A stretch of DNA of 64,000 nucleotides from contig JBFMHR010000004.1 of assembly GCA_040751795.1 (NCBI GenBank), forward strand, positions 192,001 to 256,000, read 5' to 3'. The notes beneath the pieces are model-generated. The model saw only the letters and a program-made list of their open reading frames with translations, was not told where the DNA came from and searched no databases. Positions 6,858 to 49,293 of the stretch are shown here, piece by piece. A program made the position numbers and the translations under genes. This DNA comes from Thermoplasmatota archaeon (lineage in GTDB: Archaea > Thermoplasmatota > Thermoplasmata > UBA10834). Every line of letters begins with the position of its first letter. The first letter of the stretch is position 1.

Positions 6858-6952
6858 TCTCTTCACCTTCGCAGGAACCTCTACGGGAAACCGGGGTTAA
6901 TAAGCTCATATCCAGAGGTCGGCGAAAGTAGTCTGGCCGTGCGAAAATGCGC

Positions 6953-8662
6953 TCACGCGGCGTGCCTTATGTGGACCGCCTCTCCCCTCTCCGCGAGGGC
7001 CATCTCAGCGGCGCACATCCTCGCGACGCCCACGGCCCTGACGTCCCCCTTGTGCACCACGGCGACGTCGTCCCCGATCCTCACCTCGGGGCTGGAGCCC
7101 TCGACGCCCACCGCGAACAGGTTCCCCTTGGGCCTGAAGTCCTCTATCTCGACGCAGTACGCGCCCGAGCGCGCGAGCGCCTGCCCGCCGTGCAGGGTGA
7201 GGGAGACCATCCCCCTGTCGGCGGTGAGCATCCCGAGCTGGGAGCCGTCCCTGGAGAGCTTGACGTATGGCCACCGTCCGTGCACGCGCGCCCCCTCGCA
7301 CAGGTCGTCCCCGGCGCGCCCGAACTGGAACCTGCAGACCGACCTGATGTCCTGGAAGGCCCTCTCTCCCCTGCCCTGGTCCCTCGGCTCGGGGCACCGC
7401 TCCCTGAGCGTCTCCTCGAGTCGGTCCAGGCTCTTCCGCGAGCCGGGCTCGCCCATGGACGAATCGACATGGTCCCCGAGGGCGGGGGCGACCGCGTCCC
7501 TCTCGTCGCCGAGGTGCGATATGACCAGGTCGTAGCGCTGCGTCCCCACGAGCCACGAGACCATGTCCCGGACGAGCCGCTGCTCGTCCATGTCCCAGTG
7601 GCCCGTGACGGGGATGTCGTAGTCCTGCGCGGGGTAGAACATCTCCAGCTCCCTGGGCACGATCCCGAGGGGCGACGTGACGACGACCTCGTGGACCGTC
7701 TGCGCCCTCCCGCTGGATAAGAGTGCGTCCCTGAACCTCATGTGCGACTGCGACAGCGAATATGGCTTCTTGGCCGAGCACGGGATCAGGAGGAGGACGG
7801 AGGCGCCCTCGGGGCGCCTGTACCTCTCCCTCAGCCTGTCCTGCCACCTGAGTATCTCGGGCCTCGACAGCGACTCCTTGGAGCCAGCGTGGAACGGCGC
7901 CCCCTTCACCGGGGCGTGCATCTCCTGCAGCGCGCGCGCGTCCATGTCCATGAGCCTCAGGTCCTGCACCAGCCACGGGTCGGACCTCACCCTCGACTCG
8001 ACGAGCTCCCTGAGCCGCCCCTGCGAGACCGCATGGGAGACGAGCCTCAGCTCCGCCTCGGCCGCCGCGATGTTGTGCCTCAGCAGCTCCTCCTTCCCCC
8101 TCGCCCCGGACCTGCACGCCTCGCAGTGGCAGGGGAGGTCCGTCAGCCTCGAGTAGTCCAGCGGCCCGGTCGCGGTCAGGTACATGCCGGACTCGGAGGC
8201 CATGACGAGCGGGACCGAGTCGAAGACGTCGATGCCGCAGTAGACGAGGAGCGCGAGCCTGTGCGGCATCCCCGCCAGCGAGCAGAACACCGGCCTCAGG
8301 AGGTCCGGCCCGGACTTCGCCCCCTTGACCGCGTCGACGAAACTGGGCGAGTCGAGGAGCCTCTTGGCCACGGCGTCGATGACGGCGAACCCGCCCTGCG
8401 GCCTCCCGGCCCCGTGGGGGGAGCCGCGGAACCCCGGGTCCAGGCCGCCTTCGACAGGTCCTGCGTCGCACGAGAACCCGGAGGGCAGGACCTTGAGGTC
8501 GCCCCTGCCCGCGGCATCCGCGTTCGACAGCCGGAGGCCCGTGACCGACGCGGGCGTCCGGTCCGCTACGAGGGCCACGGCAGGGGTCCTGTGCCTGACC
8601 CCGTCCACCTCGAGTATGCCGGTCCTCGCCAGCCCGTCGCGCTCGACGATCTCGAATCTCAC
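6953..8662 (-). CDS. arcS: Archaeosine synthase (TGT-like N-terminal domain, C-terminal PUA domain)
   Basis: 'FEIVERDGLARTG', 'LLIPCSAKKPYSLSQSH', 'TSPLGIVPRELE', 'YDIPVTGHW', PUA domain. Confidence 0.93.
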   Translation of the reverse strand: MRFEIVERDGLARTGILEVDGVRHRTPAVALVADRTPASVTGLRLSNADAAGRGDLKVLPSGFSCDAGPVEGGLDPGFRGSPHGAGRPQGGFAVIDAVAKRLLDSPSFVDAVKGAKSGPDLLRPVFCSLAGMPHRLALLVYCGIDVFDSVPLVMASESGMYLTATGPLDYSRLTDLPCHCEACRSGARGKEELLRHNIAAAEAELRLVSHAVSQGRLRELVESRVRSDPWLVQDLRLMDMDARALQEMHAPVKGAPFHAGSKESLSRPEILRWQDRLRERYRRPEGASVLLLIPCSAKKPYSLSQSHMRFRDALLSSGRAQTVHEVVVTSPLGIVPRELEMFYPAQDYDIPVTGHWDMDEQRLVRDMVSWLVGTQRYDLVISHLGDERDAVAPALGDHVDSSMGEPGSRKSLDRLEETLRERCPEPRDQGRGERAFQDIRSVCRFQFGRAGDDLCEGARVHGRWPYVKLSRDGSQLGMLTADRGMVSLTLHGGQALARSGAYCVEIEDFRPKGNLFAVGVEGSSPEVRIGDDVAVVHKGDVRAVGVARMCAAEMALAERGEAVHIRHAA

Positions 8663-8718
8663 GCCAGGGCATCGCCTGGAGGGTAATAAAATGAATCGAA
8701 GGGAACGGGTTTGCGGAT

Positions 8719-9075
8719 TCAGAAGGTCGTGACGACGGAGTGCTCCTCGACCAGCGCCTTCACGCCCGAGGCGGGCATGACCCTGAGCCCCTCGAAGAGG
8801 GCGGACTCGGGGATGCCCCGCGCGTCGAGGTCCTCCCTGACCACGTACACGGGGACCTCGAAGTCGTACAGCTCCTTGGTCGCGTCCATGTTGGAGGGCA
8901 TCCTGACGGCCTCCGCCCTCTGTGCGGCGACGGCGTTGTAGACGCCGTCCTCCATGAGGACCACGGACGTCTTCATGCCGTTCACGGCCATCGCCAGCGC
9001 GAGCCTCAGCCCGGCGAAGGCCTCCTCGAGCCCGTACGGGGACCTCGTCACCAGGACCAGTGTGGATTCTGCCAT
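8719..9075 (-). CDS. DsrF/TusC-like sulfur relay subunit
   Basis: 'RSPYG', 'MEDGVYNA', 'EDLDARGI'; no Cys. Confidence 0.8.
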   Translation of the reverse strand: MAESTLVLVTRSPYGLEEAFAGLRLALAMAVNGMKTSVVLMEDGVYNAVAAQRAEAVRMPSNMDATKELYDFEVPVYVVREDLDARGIPESALFEGLRVMPASGVKALVEEHSVVTTF

Positions 9076-9079
9076 GTGG

Positions 9080-9439
9080 TCACCTCGCGATGGTCACGAG
9101 CCTGTCGGACTCGGACACGAACTTGAACAGGTTGTTGGTCAGGCTGCCCACCTTCGCCGTGGGGATCTCCTCCCCGCGCTCGAAGCCCCTCGCGGCGTAG
9201 CAGGTCTCGCATATCGCCTGCTCGACGCCGTCCTTGCCCAGGGCCTCCAGCTCGTTCCCCACGTTGGGGAACCGCTTCGGGTTCTGCCCCTTCTTGACCG
9301 CGGTGACGCCCTCTCCGTAGCCGAACATGCGGACATCGTAGCCCTTGGCCCTGGCGGCCGCCGCGAGCTTGGACGCCACGTTGGCGTCCATGGCCATCAT
9401 CGACCCGGACCTCCAGAGTATGGTAAGCTTCTTCGCCAT
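9080..9439 (-). CDS. DsrE/TusD-like sulfur relay subunit
   Basis: 'FGYGEGV', 'ICETCYAARG' containing the expected acceptor Cys. Confidence 0.82.
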   Translation of the reverse strand: MAKKLTILWRSGSMMAMDANVASKLAAAARAKGYDVRMFGYGEGVTAVKKGQNPKRFPNVGNELEALGKDGVEQAICETCYAARGFERGEEIPTAKVGSLTNNLFKFVSESDRLVTIAR

Positions 9440-9448
9440 GCGCCCACC

Positions 9449-9748
9449 TCAGACCGTGACGGTCCTCTCCGTCCTCTCCATGATGCAGTCGACTATCTCG
9501 CCGTATGCCACGGCCCTGCCGACCCTGAGGTCCTTCTGGGAGAAGCCCCTCGCCTCGAGGTCGTCGGCCGCGACAAGGACCTCGTGCGCCGCCTTCCCGA
9601 GCCGCTCGGCCGGCCCGGCCTGCAGTGCGTTGTACACGGCATCCTCGAAGAGGACCGCGCTCGCCTCGTCCCTCCCTGCCACCCGGTGCATCATGTGCGT
9701 CGGGTCGAGCTCCTGGGGGGACCTGATCACTATGAATGCGGTCTTCAT
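9449..9748 (-). CDS. DsrH/TusB-like sulfur relay subunit
   Basis: 'LFEDAVY', 'DDLEARG', ~99 aa. Confidence 0.82.
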   Translation of the reverse strand: MKTAFIVIRSPQELDPTHMMHRVAGRDEASAVLFEDAVYNALQAGPAERLGKAAHEVLVAADDLEARGFSQKDLRVGRAVAYGEIVDCIMERTERTVTV

Positions 9749-9758
9749 GGTACCAACT

Positions 9759-10163
9759 TCAGCCGATGAAGAGCGTGACCTTCGAGTCCGCCGCGAGGTC
9801 GAGGAACTTCGACGCGCCGATGACCTTGGCCCCTTCGACGAGGTCCTCCTGCTTGACGCCCATGAGGCTCATCGAGGTGCTGCACGCATAGAAGTTTACG
9901 CCCAGCTCCTTGGCCTGCCTCATCATCTCGTCGTAGCCGGGCACCTTCAGCTTCATCATCTTCTTGATCATCATCCCGGTCCCGATCCTCCACAGCCCAG
10001 GCAACTTCGGTCTCACGCCCTTCTTGAGCAGCTTCAGGCCGAAGAAGGTGTAGAAGACGTGCACCTCCATACCCATGCTCGCGGCCGTGTTGCCCATTAT
10101 CAGTGGCATCATGGCCTTGTCGAAGCTGCCCTCGCTAACCACCATACAGAACTTGTCTGCCAT
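9759..10163 (-). CDS. DsrE2/peroxiredoxin-like family protein
   Basis: 'AASMGMEVHVFYTFFGL', 'FYACSTSM'. Confidence 0.85.
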   Translation of the reverse strand: MADKFCMVVSEGSFDKAMMPLIMGNTAASMGMEVHVFYTFFGLKLLKKGVRPKLPGLWRIGTGMMIKKMMKLKVPGYDEMMRQAKELGVNFYACSTSMSLMGVKQEDLVEGAKVIGASKFLDLAADSKVTLFIG

Positions 10164-24699: not shown

Positions 24700-25440
24700 T
24701 TACCCGAGCGCGTCGAGGGCGTCGGGGACGCCCTCCATGGTCCCGACCCTGGCGTCCGCCTCGGTGGAGGGCTCCGACGCGTGGGCCATGACCTGGACCG
24801 CGTGCATCCCGACCCTCTTCGCCCCGGCCACGTCCTTCTCCGGGTCGTCGCCGACGTGCGCGGCCGCCTTGGGGAGCGTCCTGAGGCCCTCCAGCGTCAC
24901 CCTGAAGGCCGCCTCGGCCGGCTTCCTCACCATGATCTCGTTCGAGAACGTCGTGACGTCGAAGTGCTCCAGGATGCCCATGCGCCCCATCAGGACCCTG
25001 AGCGCGGAGCCGGGGGTCTTGCCGGTGTTGGATATGAGCCCGAGCCTGTAGCCCTTCTCGGCGACCGCCCTGAGGGCCTCCCTGGCGCCGGGGAGGAGCT
25101 CCGGCGGGTGGTCGAGCAGGCTGTCGGAGTAGGCCCTCTCCACCCGGGAGATCTCCTCGTCGGCCATCTTCCCCGGGAGCCTGCACTCGATGCAGCTCAG
25201 CATGAACAGCACATGGTCCCTGACGGGCATGTCCCTGGCCTTGCCCCAGGTGAGCTCCAGGAAGGTCCCGGTCTTCCTGTAGGCCTCCTCGACCTCCCAG
25301 AGGTCGTGGGGGCGGCCTATCCCCTCAAGGATGTCCGCGATCCTGTGGACCCTGAGCGACGCGACCCTCTCCGCCCCCCCCGGGACCTCCCTGACGAGGG
25401 TGTCCCAGAGGTCGAAGGTCACCGCGATTATCTTCCTCAT
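24700..25440 (-). CDS. HAD-family hydrolase
   Basis: FDLWDTL, ISNT, RKP, HVGDD...DV. Confidence 0.9.
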   Translation of the reverse strand: MRKIIAVTFDLWDTLVREVPGGAERVASLRVHRIADILEGIGRPHDLWEVEEAYRKTGTFLELTWGKARDMPVRDHVLFMLSCIECRLPGKMADEEISRVERAYSDSLLDHPPELLPGAREALRAVAEKGYRLGLISNTGKTPGSALRVLMGRMGILEHFDVTTFSNEIMVRKPAEAAFRVTLEGLRTLPKAAAHVGDDPEKDVAGAKRVGMHAVQVMAHASEPSTEADARVGTMEGVPDALDALG

Positions 25441-25527
25441 CCTCTGCGCGGCCCCGTAGGCGCAGGGGCGTAATGAACCCTGGGCCTAGCGGCCGTTCAT
25501 CGCCCTCCCCGACGGGGTGGGCAATGC

Positions 25528-25534
25528 TTATATA
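25528..25534 (+). promoter_or_regulatory. TATA box of the stand-alone 5S rRNA gene
   Basis: TTATATA ~30 bp upstream of the 5S 5' end. Confidence 0.7.
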
Positions 25535-25563
25535 CGACATCGTAATTAGACGGGCTCAGAGAA

Positions 25564-25786
25564 TGGTTTGACGGCCATAGTGGCGGGGCCACACCTGGTC
25601 TCATTCCGAACCCAGAAGTTAAGCCCGCCTACGTTCTCTGTGGTACTGAGGTGCGCGAGCCCTCGGGAAGCCCAAGGCCCTTGAGGCCTCTCGGGCATAA
25701 CGGCTAGGTGCGCTAGCCAGGTACCTTCGGGTACAGGGTGAACCGCACCGCTTGAACCCGTTATGCTCGTGGAACGCCGTCAGCCA
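25564..25786 (+). rRNA. rrf: 5S rRNA with a ~94-nt insertion (~25677-25770)
   Basis: Helix I TGACGGC/GCCGTCA, helix II GTGGCGGG/CCCGCCTAC, loop C CATTCCGAAC, GAAGTTAAGC, helix IV GAGG..GCGA..CCTC, helix V GTTCT/GGAAC. Confidence 0.93.
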
Positions 25787-25880
25787 CTCTCTTCTCCACC
25801 TCCACTCCCTTGCGGTCCGCGCGACCCGTTTGGTAGGTTTTATAAGAGCACAGGGTGCTAGGCGGGCCGGAGCTGGTCGC

Positions 25881-26777
25881 ATGGCGCTGACCGAGGGCGA
25901 GAAGATCATCCTTTTGGCCGTCCTCGCGGTGCTCATGGTCTTCGTCCTCTACTTCGAGTTCAGGATCATGCGGGGCAAGGCCAAGGGCGCGCGCAGGCTG
26001 GCTGTCCGCAAGGACGAGGCGTACAACGCGATACTCACGTGCAGGTCGGTCATGAACGTGCTCGAGAGGCAGGGCTCGGACGTGTCGGAGGCCCGCTCCC
26101 TCGTGAACAAGGCGAAGTCCCACATGGAGCGGGGAGAGCACGAGACCGCCATCGACCTCTGCGAGAGGGCGAGGGACGAGCTCACCAAGGCGCGGAAGTC
26201 CCCGGCGGGGGAGGCCGCGCCCCGCGCATCGAAGGAGGACAGGTACGGCCTCGAGGCCCTGGCGGAGGAGATCGTCACGTCCGACGGGCCGGGGCCGGCG
26301 AAGGACACCTACTCCGGGTCGAAGCTCGAGGTCCAGGGCGGCCCGAGCTACCTCGTCGCCAAGTTCGAGCTGAACACGGCGAGGGAGGAGATCTCCAAGG
26401 CCAGCAGGTCTGGGAAGGACACGGGCGAGGCGTCCGAGCTGCTGAGGAGGGCGCAGGCCGAGTTCGACGCGGGCAACTACACGAAGTCCCTCTCCATGTC
26501 AGTCAAGGCGAAGAAGGCGGCTTCCCCGGAGGGCGCGGGGGAGGCCATACCCCTCAGGTCCAGGCAGCCGCACGAGCGCCCGTCCGATGCGGTGGACGGC
26601 GAGGCGGAGGACGTGGTGGACGTCTGCTCCTCGTGCGGGTCCGACATAGACGCGGAGGACGCGTTCTGCGGGTCGTGCGGGGCCAAGCGCAGGAGGGAGC
26701 GCGCGTGCCCGTCGTGCGGCCGCGCCGCCTCCGAGAGCGACAAGTTCTGCAGGAAGTGCGGCGCGAAGGTCCCCTGA
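25881..26777 (+). CDS. Membrane-anchored helical protein with C-terminal double zinc ribbon
   Basis: N-terminal TM helix, helical repeats, four C-terminal CxxC motifs. Confidence 0.8.
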   Translation: MALTEGEKIILLAVLAVLMVFVLYFEFRIMRGKAKGARRLAVRKDEAYNAILTCRSVMNVLERQGSDVSEARSLVNKAKSHMERGEHETAIDLCERARDELTKARKSPAGEAAPRASKEDRYGLEALAEEIVTSDGPGPAKDTYSGSKLEVQGGPSYLVAKFELNTAREEISKASRSGKDTGEASELLRRAQAEFDAGNYTKSLSMSVKAKKAASPEGAGEAIPLRSRQPHERPSDAVDGEAEDVVDVCSSCGSDIDAEDAFCGSCGAKRRRERACPSCGRAASESDKFCRKCGAKVP

Positions 26778-49180: not shown

Positions 49181-49293
49181 CCCGACTTAGCTCAGACTGG
49201 CTAGAGCGGCTGACTGTAGTGTGGATATCGGCAAGACCGATTGCAGTCGCTGAGATCAGCAGGCCCCCGGTTCAAATCCGGGAGTCGGGACCA
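49181..49293 (+). tRNA. tRNA-Tyr(GTA) with a 35-nt intron at 37/38 (49220-49254), CCA encoded
   Basis: C1-G72 acceptor CCCGACT/AGTCGGG, anticodon GTA 49216-49218, stem GCTGA/TCAGC. Confidence 0.93.

What the first reader, a model, noticed from the sequence alone, without database searches (positions are those of the whole stretch)
25564..25786. 5S rRNA with a ~94-nt structured expansion segment or intron in helix V
Seen: a 5S gene with its own TATA box and all canonical helices, but about 223 nt long. Removing ~25677-25770 restores a ~120-nt core with a continuous helix V (GTTCT-CT(G)TGG pairing with CCAAG|GGAAC). The insert folds by eye into a small GCC/GGC hairpin, a 12-bp stem (CGGGCATAACGG 25692-25703 / CCGTTATGCTCG 25758-25769), an inner GGTGCG/CGCACC stem and a GTACC-TTCG-GGTAC cUUCGg cap. 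Established: 5S length is strongly conserved, and Halococcus morrhuae 5S has a ~108-nt insertion at about the same site (near E. coli 104/105). Inference: this is an independent large 5S expansion segment in a non-halophilic, probably Thermoplasmatota archaeon. I see no clear bulge-helix-bulge at the junctions, so retention in the ribosome is favoured over splicing.
Basis: partly seen in the sequence, partly recalled or inferred. Interest (0 to 1): 0.85.

Follow-up and report, generated by a model that had tools for sequence, protein, structure and literature searches.

The report
Expanded 5S rRNA across Thermoplasmatota archaea
This is a real 5S ribosomal RNA gene nearly twice the normal length because of a folded 97-base extra arm, and the same arm is found in many uncultured relatives, so the oddity known from salt-loving Halococcus is much more widespread.

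Summary
Window 25565-25785 (+) is a 221-nt 5S rRNA gene. It is the only 5S match in this 92.8%-complete genome. About 97 nt (25675-25771) are inserted in the 3' strand of helix V.

The insert folds as a short hairpin plus a long unbranched arm, which makes a four-way junction with helix V. It is not a one-off:
- It is found in 43 of 49 genomes of the window's own order.
- It is found in 47 of 151 sampled genomes of its class (Thermoplasmata, by MAG titles).
- It is found in 31 of 121 genomes of a second class of the phylum.

Across 76 distinct inserts, 18 of 20 modelled pairs show compensatory changes, while several unpaired bases are invariant.

RNA-library contigs from four studies run through the insert. 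One ends in sequencing adapter at the predicted 3' end. None shows a spliced form, and the flanks have no cover. No bulge-helix-bulge motif was found.

The best reading is a retained expansion segment. It sits at the same site, and has the same "asymmetric V" shape, as the Halococcus-type segment. Covariance models built in both directions detect no similarity between the two.

Four full-text searches found no report of this in Thermoplasmatota. Its function, and whether it lies in the ribosome, are inferred and not shown.

The parts
25527..25535 (+). TATA-like promoter element (CTTATATAC), about 34 nt upstream of the 5S 5' end
   Evidence: Read directly. TTATATA/TTAAATA-like elements stand upstream of the 5S genes of relatives. 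No transcription start was mapped.
25565..25785 (+). Expanded 5S rRNA gene, 221 nt (ends +/- a few nt)
   Evidence: RF00001 at 79.5 bits. The MFE fold shows all canonical helices. It is the sole RF00001 match in G000. An RNA-library contig ends at 25786 and runs straight into adapter.
25565..25575 (+). Helix I, 5' strand; pairs with 25776-25785
   Evidence: Pairs listed. Across 42 sequences 94.3% of cells are paired.
25633..25644 (+). Helix V, 5' strand. The outer part 25633-25637 pairs with 25771-25775. The inner part 25639-25644 pairs with 25670-25674.
   Evidence: The insert lies between the two 3' partners.
25675..25771 (+). Expansion segment, about 97 nt (boundaries +/- 2 nt)
   Evidence: Single 97-nt gap against normal 5S genes in 5 of 8 alignments. 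Models R1/R2 match it at 117/109 bits. It has one copy in G000.
25675..25689 (+). ES-h1: the short hairpin arm (AGGCC-CUUGA-GGCCU)
   Evidence: All 5 of its pairs show compensatory changes across 42 sequences (helices 7-8). An expressed relative carries C25678U together with G25686A, which are the two sides of one pair.
25692..25703 (+). ES-h2: the 12-bp base stem of the long arm, 5' strand; pairs with 25758-25769
   Evidence: 10 of 12 pairs have changes on both sides (helix 9).
25704..25706 (+). Conserved internal loop, 5' side (CUA), facing 25750-25757 (GCUUGAAC)
   Evidence: In 76 distinct segments the A is 100%, the U 95% and the following G 100% conserved. On the 3' side G is 100%, UU 93/96% and AA 100/99%. 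The middle U.U is never a standard pair.
25707..25712 (+). ES-h3: 6-bp stem, 5' strand; pairs with 25744-25749
   Evidence: 5 of 6 pairs show compensatory changes and 97.8% of cells are paired (helix 5).
25713..25743 (+). Second internal loop (CUA / GAAC) and distal hairpin with a UUCG cap at 25726-25729
   Evidence: The distal part varies in length between families; their 5S genes are 220-237 nt.
25750..25757 (+). Conserved internal loop, 3' side (GCUUGAAC), with two near-invariant adenines at 25755-25756

Best explanation
This is the organism's working, and only, 5S rRNA gene. It is transcribed on its own from a TATA-type promoter.

Its transcript keeps a roughly 97-nt expansion segment (ES) inserted in the 3' strand of helix V, between loop E and the three-helix junction. 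The segment folds on its own into an asymmetric V: a 5-bp hairpin and a long unbranched arm built from a 12-bp stem, a conserved asymmetric loop, a 6-bp stem, a second loop and a capped hairpin. Helix V stays continuous and a four-way junction forms.

The following steps are inferred, not shown:
- By analogy with the Halococcus morrhuae ribosome, the arm would project from the central protuberance into solvent.
- The near-invariant unpaired bases (a U.U mismatch and two bulged adenines) most likely form a contact site for a protein or another rRNA helix.

The trait is inherited within families and orders of Thermoplasmatota.
For: Gene identity and sole copy
- RF00001 matches at 79.5 bits.
- G000 has 1 match.
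- The three single-contig relatives G017, G018 and G020 each have 1 match, and it is the expanded gene.

Structure
- Searches give the fold.
- All 15 representatives of different families, folded separately, adopt the same architecture.

Covariation
- 42 distinct full genes: 93.1% of cells paired against 87.1% in shuffles, covariation score 0.224 against 0.117, 0 of 500 shuffles reaching either value, and 31-44% paired when the partners are slid.
- 76 distinct segments: 93.1% against 70.7% paired, 18 of 20 pairs with changes on both sides, score 0.667 against 0.249, 0 of 500 shuffles.
- Unpaired bases are invariant while the stems vary.

Distribution
- Own order 43 of 49, and 12 of 12 high-quality genomes.
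- Another order 37 of 44.
- Class sample 47 of 151.
- Phylum sample 14 of 151, 12 of them outside the class.
- Second class 31 of 121.
- Every hit I inspected lies in a 5S gene at the same place.

RNA
- The X1 contig spans 25614-25781 with 0 differences.
- The X4 contig spans 25648-25786 and then runs into Illumina adapter.
- The X5 contig spans 25648-25779 and then runs into adapter.
- X13 contigs lie inside the insert.
- There are no joints in any of the 4 runs from 4 studies.
- There is no cover in 25450-25561 or 25802-25900.

No BHB motif was found.
Against: - Nothing here shows the RNA inside a ribosome. Its placement rests on Halococcus cryo-EM (passages read).
- All four runs are assembled contigs, not raw reads. 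Contigs drop rare variants, so a minor spliced or nicked form cannot be excluded.
- By the tool's 31-nt rule only the X1 contig bridges the 5' junction. The 3' junction can never meet the rule, because only about 15 nt follow it.
- The A5 alignment was fitted to the model's structure and so leans towards it.
- The sequences are related, so shuffle controls overstate significance.
- Nothing tested here supports a function for the conserved loops, and I could not assign them to a known motif class.
Confidence: 0.85

Rival explanations
1. Archaeal intron: the insert is cut out at a bulge-helix-bulge motif by the splicing endonuclease and the exons are ligated, giving a normal ~124-nt 5S rRNA.
For: Archaea do splice rRNA and tRNA introns (established knowledge). 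The window itself holds an intron-bearing tRNA at 49181-49290. Removing the insert restores a continuous helix V.
Against: No strict BHB was found in 3150 placements of the two bulges around the junctions. The relaxed hits would cut into the 5S core. The same scan found BHB-like candidates in the tRNA. RNA-library contigs from 4 studies run through the insert and none shows a joint. Conserved unpaired bases and fixation across orders fit a retained module better than a mobile intron.
Confidence: 0.04
2. Intervening sequence: part of the long arm is removed by an RNase without religation, leaving a 5S rRNA in two pieces held together by base pairing.
For: Fragmenting intervening sequences are known in bacterial 23S rRNA (cited as a caveat by Stepanov & Fox, passage read). 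A long perfect stem is a plausible RNase III-type substrate.
Against: Contigs from RNA libraries are continuous across the whole arm in X1, X4 and X5. The distal hairpin and the loops are conserved, which would be unexpected for discarded RNA.
Confidence: 0.05
3. Neutral passenger: the segment is retained in the ribosome but has no function. It persists only because this site tolerates insertions.
For: Stepanov & Fox state that position 104.1-105 allows unhindered expansion away from other ribosomal parts (passage). The Halococcus insert looks flexible and unpacked in cryo-EM (abstract and passages). The distal part varies in length among families.
Against: Unpaired positions are 93-100% conserved across 76 distinct segments from at least two classes, while the stems turn over freely. 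No loss was seen within the two orders examined beyond what incomplete assemblies can explain: 12 of 12 and 21 of 23 high-quality genomes carry it.
Confidence: 0.25
4. Artefact: misassembly, pseudogene or repeated mobile element.
For: The genome is a 53-contig MAG. One relative in the second class (G277) does carry a truncated extra copy.
Against: The same gene form stands in dozens of independent assemblies, including single-contig genomes, and in RNA contigs. The segment occurs once in G000. It is the sole 5S match.
Confidence: 0.01

Closest known systems
Halobacterial 5S rRNA expansion segment (Halococcus, Halalkalicoccus, Halomarina, Halodesulfurarchaeum; Luehrsen 1981 as cited; Stepanov & Fox 2021, PMC7812874; Tirumalai 2020, PMC7530397)
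   Same: Same insertion site, to within 1-2 nt. In both, the segment directly precedes GG(UU/AA)CGCC of the helix V / helix I 3' strands. The published site is 104.1/105, equal to 108/109 in universal numbering. In the alignment the last core base before the insert falls at model position 107. [quoted passage not shown] Sizes are similar (97-113 nt against 108 nt). Both are the sole 5S type in the cell. Both are retained in RNA; this is shown for Halococcus and supported by contigs here.
   Different: No detectable similarity. The Thermoplasmatota model R2 gave no hit on 10 halobacterial-type expanded genes recovered from metagenome contigs with default filters, and 6.3 bits, E 0.11, with filters off on a 291-nt stretch. 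The halobacterial model R3 found its 4 own controls and 0 of 24 Thermoplasmatota loci at E <= 10. The conserved parts differ: the distal stem-loop in halobacteria, the proximal internal loop here. The host is non-halophilic and belongs to another phylum. The spread is far wider: whole orders and at least two classes, against four genera.
Bacterial 5S rRNA expansion segments (Thermoanaerobacterales, Clostridiales, Halanaerobiales, Alteromonadales; Stepanov & Fox 2021)
   Same: A structured, internally paired insertion in a conserved 5S core that leaves the core fold intact (abstract and Results).
   Different: The bacterial segments use other sites (helix III bulge, loop B/C, helix IV), are mostly smaller (from 13 nt up), often coexist with normal 5S copies and are scattered among strains. 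Here the gene is single-copy and the trait is fixed across orders.
Archaeal bulge-helix-bulge introns in rRNA and tRNA genes
   Same: An insertion in a stable-RNA gene whose removal would restore the canonical molecule.
   Different: No BHB motif, no spliced form in RNA contigs, conserved loops and clade-wide fixation.

Membership tests
5S rRNA (Rfam RF00001) | Covariance-model score above the gathering cut-off of 38 bits | tested here: met
   79.5 bits, E 3.1e-15, model positions 1-120. The alignment mispairs helix I because the model cannot span the insert.
5S rRNA (Rfam RF00001) | Helices I-V with loops A-E formed by the two ends and the core | tested here: met
   MFE fold of the full 231 nt. 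Core helices are 84-100% paired across 42 sequences.
5S rRNA (Rfam RF00001) | The functional copy of the genome | tested here: met
   One match in G000, which is 92.8% complete. One match in each of three single-contig relatives.
Prokaryotic 5S rRNA expansion segment (sense of Stepanov & Fox 2021) | An insertion of 13 nt or more in the conserved core with extensive internal pairing and no disruption of the core | tested here: met
   97-nt gap against normal homologues. Folds. Covariation.
Prokaryotic 5S rRNA expansion segment (sense of Stepanov & Fox 2021) | Retained in the mature RNA, not excised | tested here: inconclusive
   RNA-library contigs of 4 studies run through it, one up to the 3' end plus adapter, with no joints and silent flanks. 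This supports retention. However, contigs cannot exclude a minor processed form, and no raw reads were available.
Prokaryotic 5S rRNA expansion segment (sense of Stepanov & Fox 2021) | Present in assembled ribosomes | not testable with these tools
   Needs ribosome purification or cryo-EM. Inferred from the gene being the sole 5S copy and from Halococcus.
Halobacterial-type 5S expansion segment | Insertion at core position 104.1/105 | tested here: met
   Same flanking core bases on the 3' side. Within 1-2 nt on the 5' side.
Halobacterial-type 5S expansion segment | Asymmetric V: short hairpin arm plus long unbranched arm | tested here: met
   for this clade. for halobacterial-type genes from metagenomes. 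Published description.
Halobacterial-type 5S expansion segment | Same structural type, that is, recognisable sequence and structure homology | tested here: not met
   R2 against halobacterial genes: no hit, or 6.3 bits, E 0.11. R3 against 24 Thermoplasmatota loci: no hit at E <= 10.
Archaeal BHB intron | Two 3-nt bulges separated by a 4-bp helix at the two junctions | tested here: not met
   0 strict candidates in 3150 placements. The tRNA control gave 2. The scan is my own script.
Archaeal BHB intron | Spliced product in RNA | tested here: not met
   No joint in 4 RNA runs. Contigs only.

The most novel reading that the evidence does not exclude
The segment is an ancient, functionally constrained ribosomal module of Thermoplasmatota. 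Its invariant U.U mismatch and bulged adenines would form a docking site for a lineage-specific protein or rRNA contact on the central protuberance. It would also share ancestry with the haloarchaeal 5S expansion segment, either by old transfer of a 5S gene between the phyla or by common descent, with the similarity since eroded beyond what covariance models can detect. That would make position 104.1/105 the site of a single, trans-phylum archaeal rRNA innovation rather than two accidents.
Probability: 0.15. Interest if true: 0.85.

Novelty: new variant of a known kind. Interest (0 to 1): 0.68.

Why it matters
5S rRNA length is among the most conserved features of the ribosome. In the survey I read, large expansions in archaea were reported only from four haloarchaeal genera (Stepanov & Fox 2021: abstract, Results part 1 and passages).

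This finding shows the same kind of expansion, at the same site, fixed across whole orders of a different, non-halophilic and environmentally widespread phylum. It matters in five ways:
1. It removes 'adaptation to salt' as a general explanation.
2. It supplies dozens of diverged sequences with rich covariation. These pin down the fold and point to conserved unpaired bases as the likely functional part, which the few halobacterial sequences could not do.
3. It raises the question of convergence against transfer at one permissive ribosomal site.
4. Standard Rfam-based annotation truncates these genes to a false 120-nt call. This may explain why they were missed, and it affects MAG rRNA-quality checks.
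5. Because the hosts are uncultured, the result also names a concrete target for cryo-EM of enrichment cultures.

Tried and rejected
Leads that went nowhere
- Bit score as a marker. I considered using the RF00001 bit score to tell expanded genes from normal ones. I dropped it because some normal-length genes, such as G031 at 75 bits, score as low as expanded ones.
- The downstream gene as a segment-binding candidate. HAD hydrolase - 5S - TPR/zinc-ribbon synteny is kept across the own order. But the TPR/zinc-ribbon gene also stands beside normal-length 5S genes (L051, L054), so it is not specific to the segment.
- Rfam on the segment alone gave only chance-level hits, with E of 1.4 and 2.
- K-turn, sarcin-ricin/loop E, UAA/GAN and T-loop readings of the conserved loop. 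I compared these by eye against recalled consensus sequences only. None fitted cleanly and none is claimed.
- Plasmid collection search for a Halococcus 5S. All 20 records matched the 5S core only. The haloarchaeal ones were Halorussus, Halomicrobium, Haladaptatus and others, with normal-length genes in the six I read.
- Metagenome scan for expanded haloarchaeal 5S. Of 18 loci, 8 were normal 5S genes followed by a chance CGCCGC. The other 10 carry a segment of about 108 nt.
- A look at 23S length for a co-varying expansion. Lengths vary within the genus (2928-3635 nt), so the inserts are not linked to the 5S segment. Not pursued.

Limits on what I can say
- Parts of RNA runs without cover, and run shares that I did not lay, are not used as evidence.
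- I did not map the trait on a species tree, so gains, losses and transfer remain open.
- That the window's own order is GTDB 'UBA10834' is only a guess, from the isolate name of L035 and a recalled naming habit.
- Supplements of Stepanov & Fox (Table S1, File S1, Fig. S6) were not seen and could list further taxa.
- 'Not in print' rests on searches of the held library only.

Full report
WHAT IS THERE

Window 25565-25785 on the + strand is a 5S rRNA gene of 221 nt. Rfam's 5S model matches at 79.5 bits against a cut-off of 38. Because the model cannot span a large insertion, it ends the alignment at 25686 and mispairs helix I there. The real partner of the 5' strand GGTTTGACGGC is GCCGTCAGCC at 25776-25785.

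The minimum-free-energy fold of 25560-25790 gives all canonical 5S helices plus an extra domain. Its energy is -105.9 kcal/mol, z = -4.12, and 0 of 200 shuffles fold as well.

Global alignment to eight normal 124-125-nt 5S genes from sister families put a single 97-nt gap at 25671-25675 to 25767-25771 in 5 of 8 comparisons. In the other 3 the gap was split.

A TATA-like CTTATATAC lies at 25527-25535, and TATA-like sequences stand upstream of the 5S genes of relatives too. The whole 64-kb window holds no 16S or 23S gene, so the 5S gene stands alone. It lies between a HAD-hydrolase gene on the other strand and a TPR/zinc-ribbon gene.

ANATOMY OF THE INSERT

- A short hairpin at 25675-25689.
- A two-base linker.
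- A 12-bp stem, 25692-25703 / 25758-25769.
- An asymmetric internal loop, CUA facing GCUUGAAC.
- A 6-bp stem, 25707-25712 / 25744-25749.
- A second loop, CUA facing GAAC.
- A hairpin capped by UUCG.

Helix V closes around it (25633-25637 / 25771-25775 and 25639-25644 / 25670-25674). The site therefore becomes a four-way junction.

IT IS THE ONLY 5S GENE

The window's genome has 53 contigs and is 92.8% complete. It has one RF00001 match. The three single-contig relatives G017, G018 and G020 also have one match each, and it is the expanded form. The segment itself occurs once in the genome, so it is not a repeated element.

IT IS A CLADE TRAIT

- First set of relatives. Of 30 5S loci fetched, 20 genes are 220-237 nt long and 10 are 123-125 nt long.
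- Species-representative genomes. An exact 24-mer from the core was scanned across them and returned 62 loci:
  - 43 complete expanded genes
  - 2 expanded genes with masked 5' parts
  - 2 genes cut by contig ends
  - 5 normal archaeal genes
  - 10 normal bacterial (Anaerolineae-type) genes
  Every expanded one is titled as an uncultured Thermoplasmata, Thermoplasmatota, 'Methanomassiliicoccales', Methanobacteriota or Euryarchaeota MAG.
- Model searches. Covariance models of the segment alone (R1, R2) found it in:
  - 43 of 49 genomes of the own order, and 12 of 12 high-quality ones
  - 37 of 44 genomes of another single-family order, and 21 of 23 high-quality ones
  - 47 of 151 sampled genomes of the class, in 9 of 29 families
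  - 14 of 151 of a phylum sample, 12 of them outside the class
  - 31 of 121 genomes of that second class, in two families at 26 of 38 and 5 of 13
- Every match I read lies inside a 5S gene directly after the GGGAAG... of loop E / helix IV.
- Ten families of the class showed normal-length genes.
- Misses in incomplete MAGs are not evidence of absence, and the searches used Infernal's stricter filters.

STRUCTURE IS CONSERVED AND SEQUENCE IS NOT

- 42 distinct full-length genes:
  - 93.1% of pair cells are standard pairs, against 87.1% in shuffles.
  - 25 pairs change on both sides.
  - The covariation score is 0.224 against 0.117.
  - 0 of 500 shuffles reach either value.
  - Sliding the partners drops pairing to 31-44%.
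  - In the 12-bp stem, 10 of 12 pairs have compensatory changes.
- 76 distinct segments from all families found, aligned to the model, which biases towards its structure:
  - 93.1% are paired, against 70.7% in shuffles.
  - 18 of 20 pairs have double changes.
  - The score is 0.667 against 0.249, with 0 of 500 shuffles.
- Fifteen representatives folded one by one give the same architecture.

By contrast, unpaired bases are the most conserved. In the first loop the 5' side reads Y-U-A, with U at 95% and A at 100%. The 3' side reads G-Y-U-U-K-A-A, with G at 100%, UU at 93/96% and AA at 100/99%. Read as pairs, this is a C-G or U-G pair (59 of 76), an invariant non-standard U.U (76 of 76) and an A-U pair (71 of 76), flanked by bulges that include two adenines.

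This is the signature of a recognition element. I could not assign it to a named motif. Comparisons with K-turn, loop E, UAA/GAN and T-loop consensus were from memory and by eye, and none fitted well.

IS IT IN THE RNA?

One search found RNA-library runs that hold the sequence. Four runs from four studies were laid on 25450-25900. All are assembled contigs.

- X1 (freshwater metatranscriptome): one 168-nt contig, 25614-25781, identical to the window and running through the whole insert.
- X4 (soil): a contig over 25648-25786 that continues directly into Illumina adapter. The cDNA fragment therefore ended at the predicted 3' end of the 5S RNA.
- X5 (aquatic): a contig over 25648-25779, then adapter.
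- X13 (sediment): contigs inside the insert.

No joint, meaning no spliced form, was reported in any run. Cover is zero in 25450-25561 and 25802-25900, which argues for RNA rather than contaminating DNA.

The variants seen include C25678U with G25686A, the two sides of one hairpin pair. A loose end matches the segment of a sister genus. Several expanded forms are therefore expressed.

Limits: only X1 satisfies the tool's 31-nt bridging rule at the 5' junction. The 3' junction cannot satisfy it, because the RNA ends about 15 nt later. Contigs cannot exclude minor processed forms.

My scan for a canonical bulge-helix-bulge found none among 3150 placements around the junctions. It found two candidates in the window's intron-bearing tRNA.

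COMPARISON WITH WHAT IS KNOWN

Stepanov & Fox (PMC7812874; abstract, Results part 1 and passages read) list 89 expanded 5S rRNAs. In archaea these come only from Halococcus, Halalkalicoccus, Halomarina and Halodesulfurarchaeum, all with a 108-nt segment between core positions 104.1 and 105. Their survey used nt BLAST with the two known examples, 5SrRNAdb, Rfam, and annotated 5S genes longer than 129 nt in 1046 archaeal RefSeq genomes. Uncultured MAGs with truncated annotations would escape it. The paper holds no occurrence of 'Thermoplasma', 'metagenom' or 'uncultured'.

[quoted passage not shown] Tirumalai et al. (PMC7530397; abstract and passages) saw a four-way junction and flexible protruding density at that base by cryo-EM, and give the site as 108/109 in universal numbering.

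The present segment has the same site. In both, it directly precedes GG(UU/AA)CGCC, and the last core base before it aligns to Rfam position 107. It also has the same overall shape.

To test homology I recovered 10 expanded haloarchaeal 5S genes, 8 of them distinct, from hypersaline metagenome contigs. The pattern was built from haloarchaeal plasmid 5S genes.

- The Thermoplasmatota model did not match them with default filters.
- With filters off on a 291-nt stretch it scored 6.3 bits, E 0.11.
- A model built from them (R3) found its own 4 controls and none of 24 Thermoplasmatota loci at E <= 10.

Membership in the halobacterial structural type is therefore not met, although the segment works like one. 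A faint parallel remains: a 3-bp element flanked by 3'-strand bulges between the first two stems of the long arm in both types. It is a lead, not evidence.

NOVELTY

Four full-text searches found no report of an expanded 5S rRNA in Thermoplasmata or Thermoplasmatota. Supplements of the key paper were not available.

I rate this a new variant of a known kind. It is a 5S expansion segment of the Halococcus sort in position and shape. But it belongs to a distinct sequence family, lives in a non-halophilic phylum, is fixed across orders and present in at least two classes, and is conserved in its loops rather than its tip.

VERDICT

- Shown: the gene, the insert, its fold by covariation, its spread, its single-copy status, its presence in RNA-library contigs up to the 3' end, and the absence of a BHB motif and of spliced contigs.
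- Inferred: incorporation into ribosomes, outward projection from the central protuberance, and a binding role for the conserved loop.
- Open: its function, its origin (convergence at a permissive site or old transfer), and the number of gains and losses.

Noticed in passing
G000 contig C12:61671-65296 (same genome, outside the window): The 23S rRNA gene spans 3626 nt for a full-length Rfam LSU match. In congeners the span is 2928-2931 nt (G004, G005, G009), 3185 nt (G006) and 3635 nt (G010). In other families it is 2915-2945 nt. Inserts of about 250 and 700 nt that vary within a genus suggest mobile introns in the 23S gene, unlike the fixed 5S segment.
   Followed up: no
L176 and L145 (G277:C128:5650-6100 and 6947-10049), second class of the phylum: A full expanded 5S gene stands next to what looks like the end of a 23S gene. 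About 2.5 kb downstream lies a 203-nt, 99.5% identical copy of its 3' part, including the whole expansion segment but lacking the first ~90 nt of the 5S. Stepanov & Fox describe similar 5S remnants with insertions in bacteria.
   Followed up: partly
window 49181-49290 (+): A tRNA gene with an intron of about 38 nt (Rfam tRNA 53.8 bits). ARAGORN reports it with an undetermined type and an odd anticodon. My BHB scan finds two strict candidates in it.
   Followed up: partly
window 25567-25686: Rfam/Infernal reports a complete-looking 120-nt 5S match that is wrong at its 3' end: it uses the segment's first hairpin as helix I. Automated annotation would therefore hide these expanded genes.
   Followed up: yes
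window 24700-25440 (-) and 25881-26777 (+): HAD-family hydrolase and a TPR plus zinc-ribbon protein flank the 5S gene. This order is kept across the own order, and the TPR/zinc-ribbon gene also neighbours normal-length 5S genes in L051 and L054. A TATA-like TTTTATAAGA at about 25839-25848 precedes the downstream gene.
   Followed up: yes
L159, L161-L164, L167, L169, L171, L173, L174 (metagenome contigs): Ten expanded haloarchaeal-type 5S genes, 8 of them distinct. The stretch between GGGAA and UUCGCCGCC is 111-117 nt. They share an invariant GUCGAC and a conserved distal CUGGGUCCGUCCCGGUGG-like stem-loop.
   Followed up: partly
L038, L050, L060, L064, L075, L079, L082-L084, L088: Anaerolineae-type bacteria share an exact 24-nt stretch of the 5S loop C / helix III region with these archaea but have normal 119-120-nt 5S genes.
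   Followed up: no
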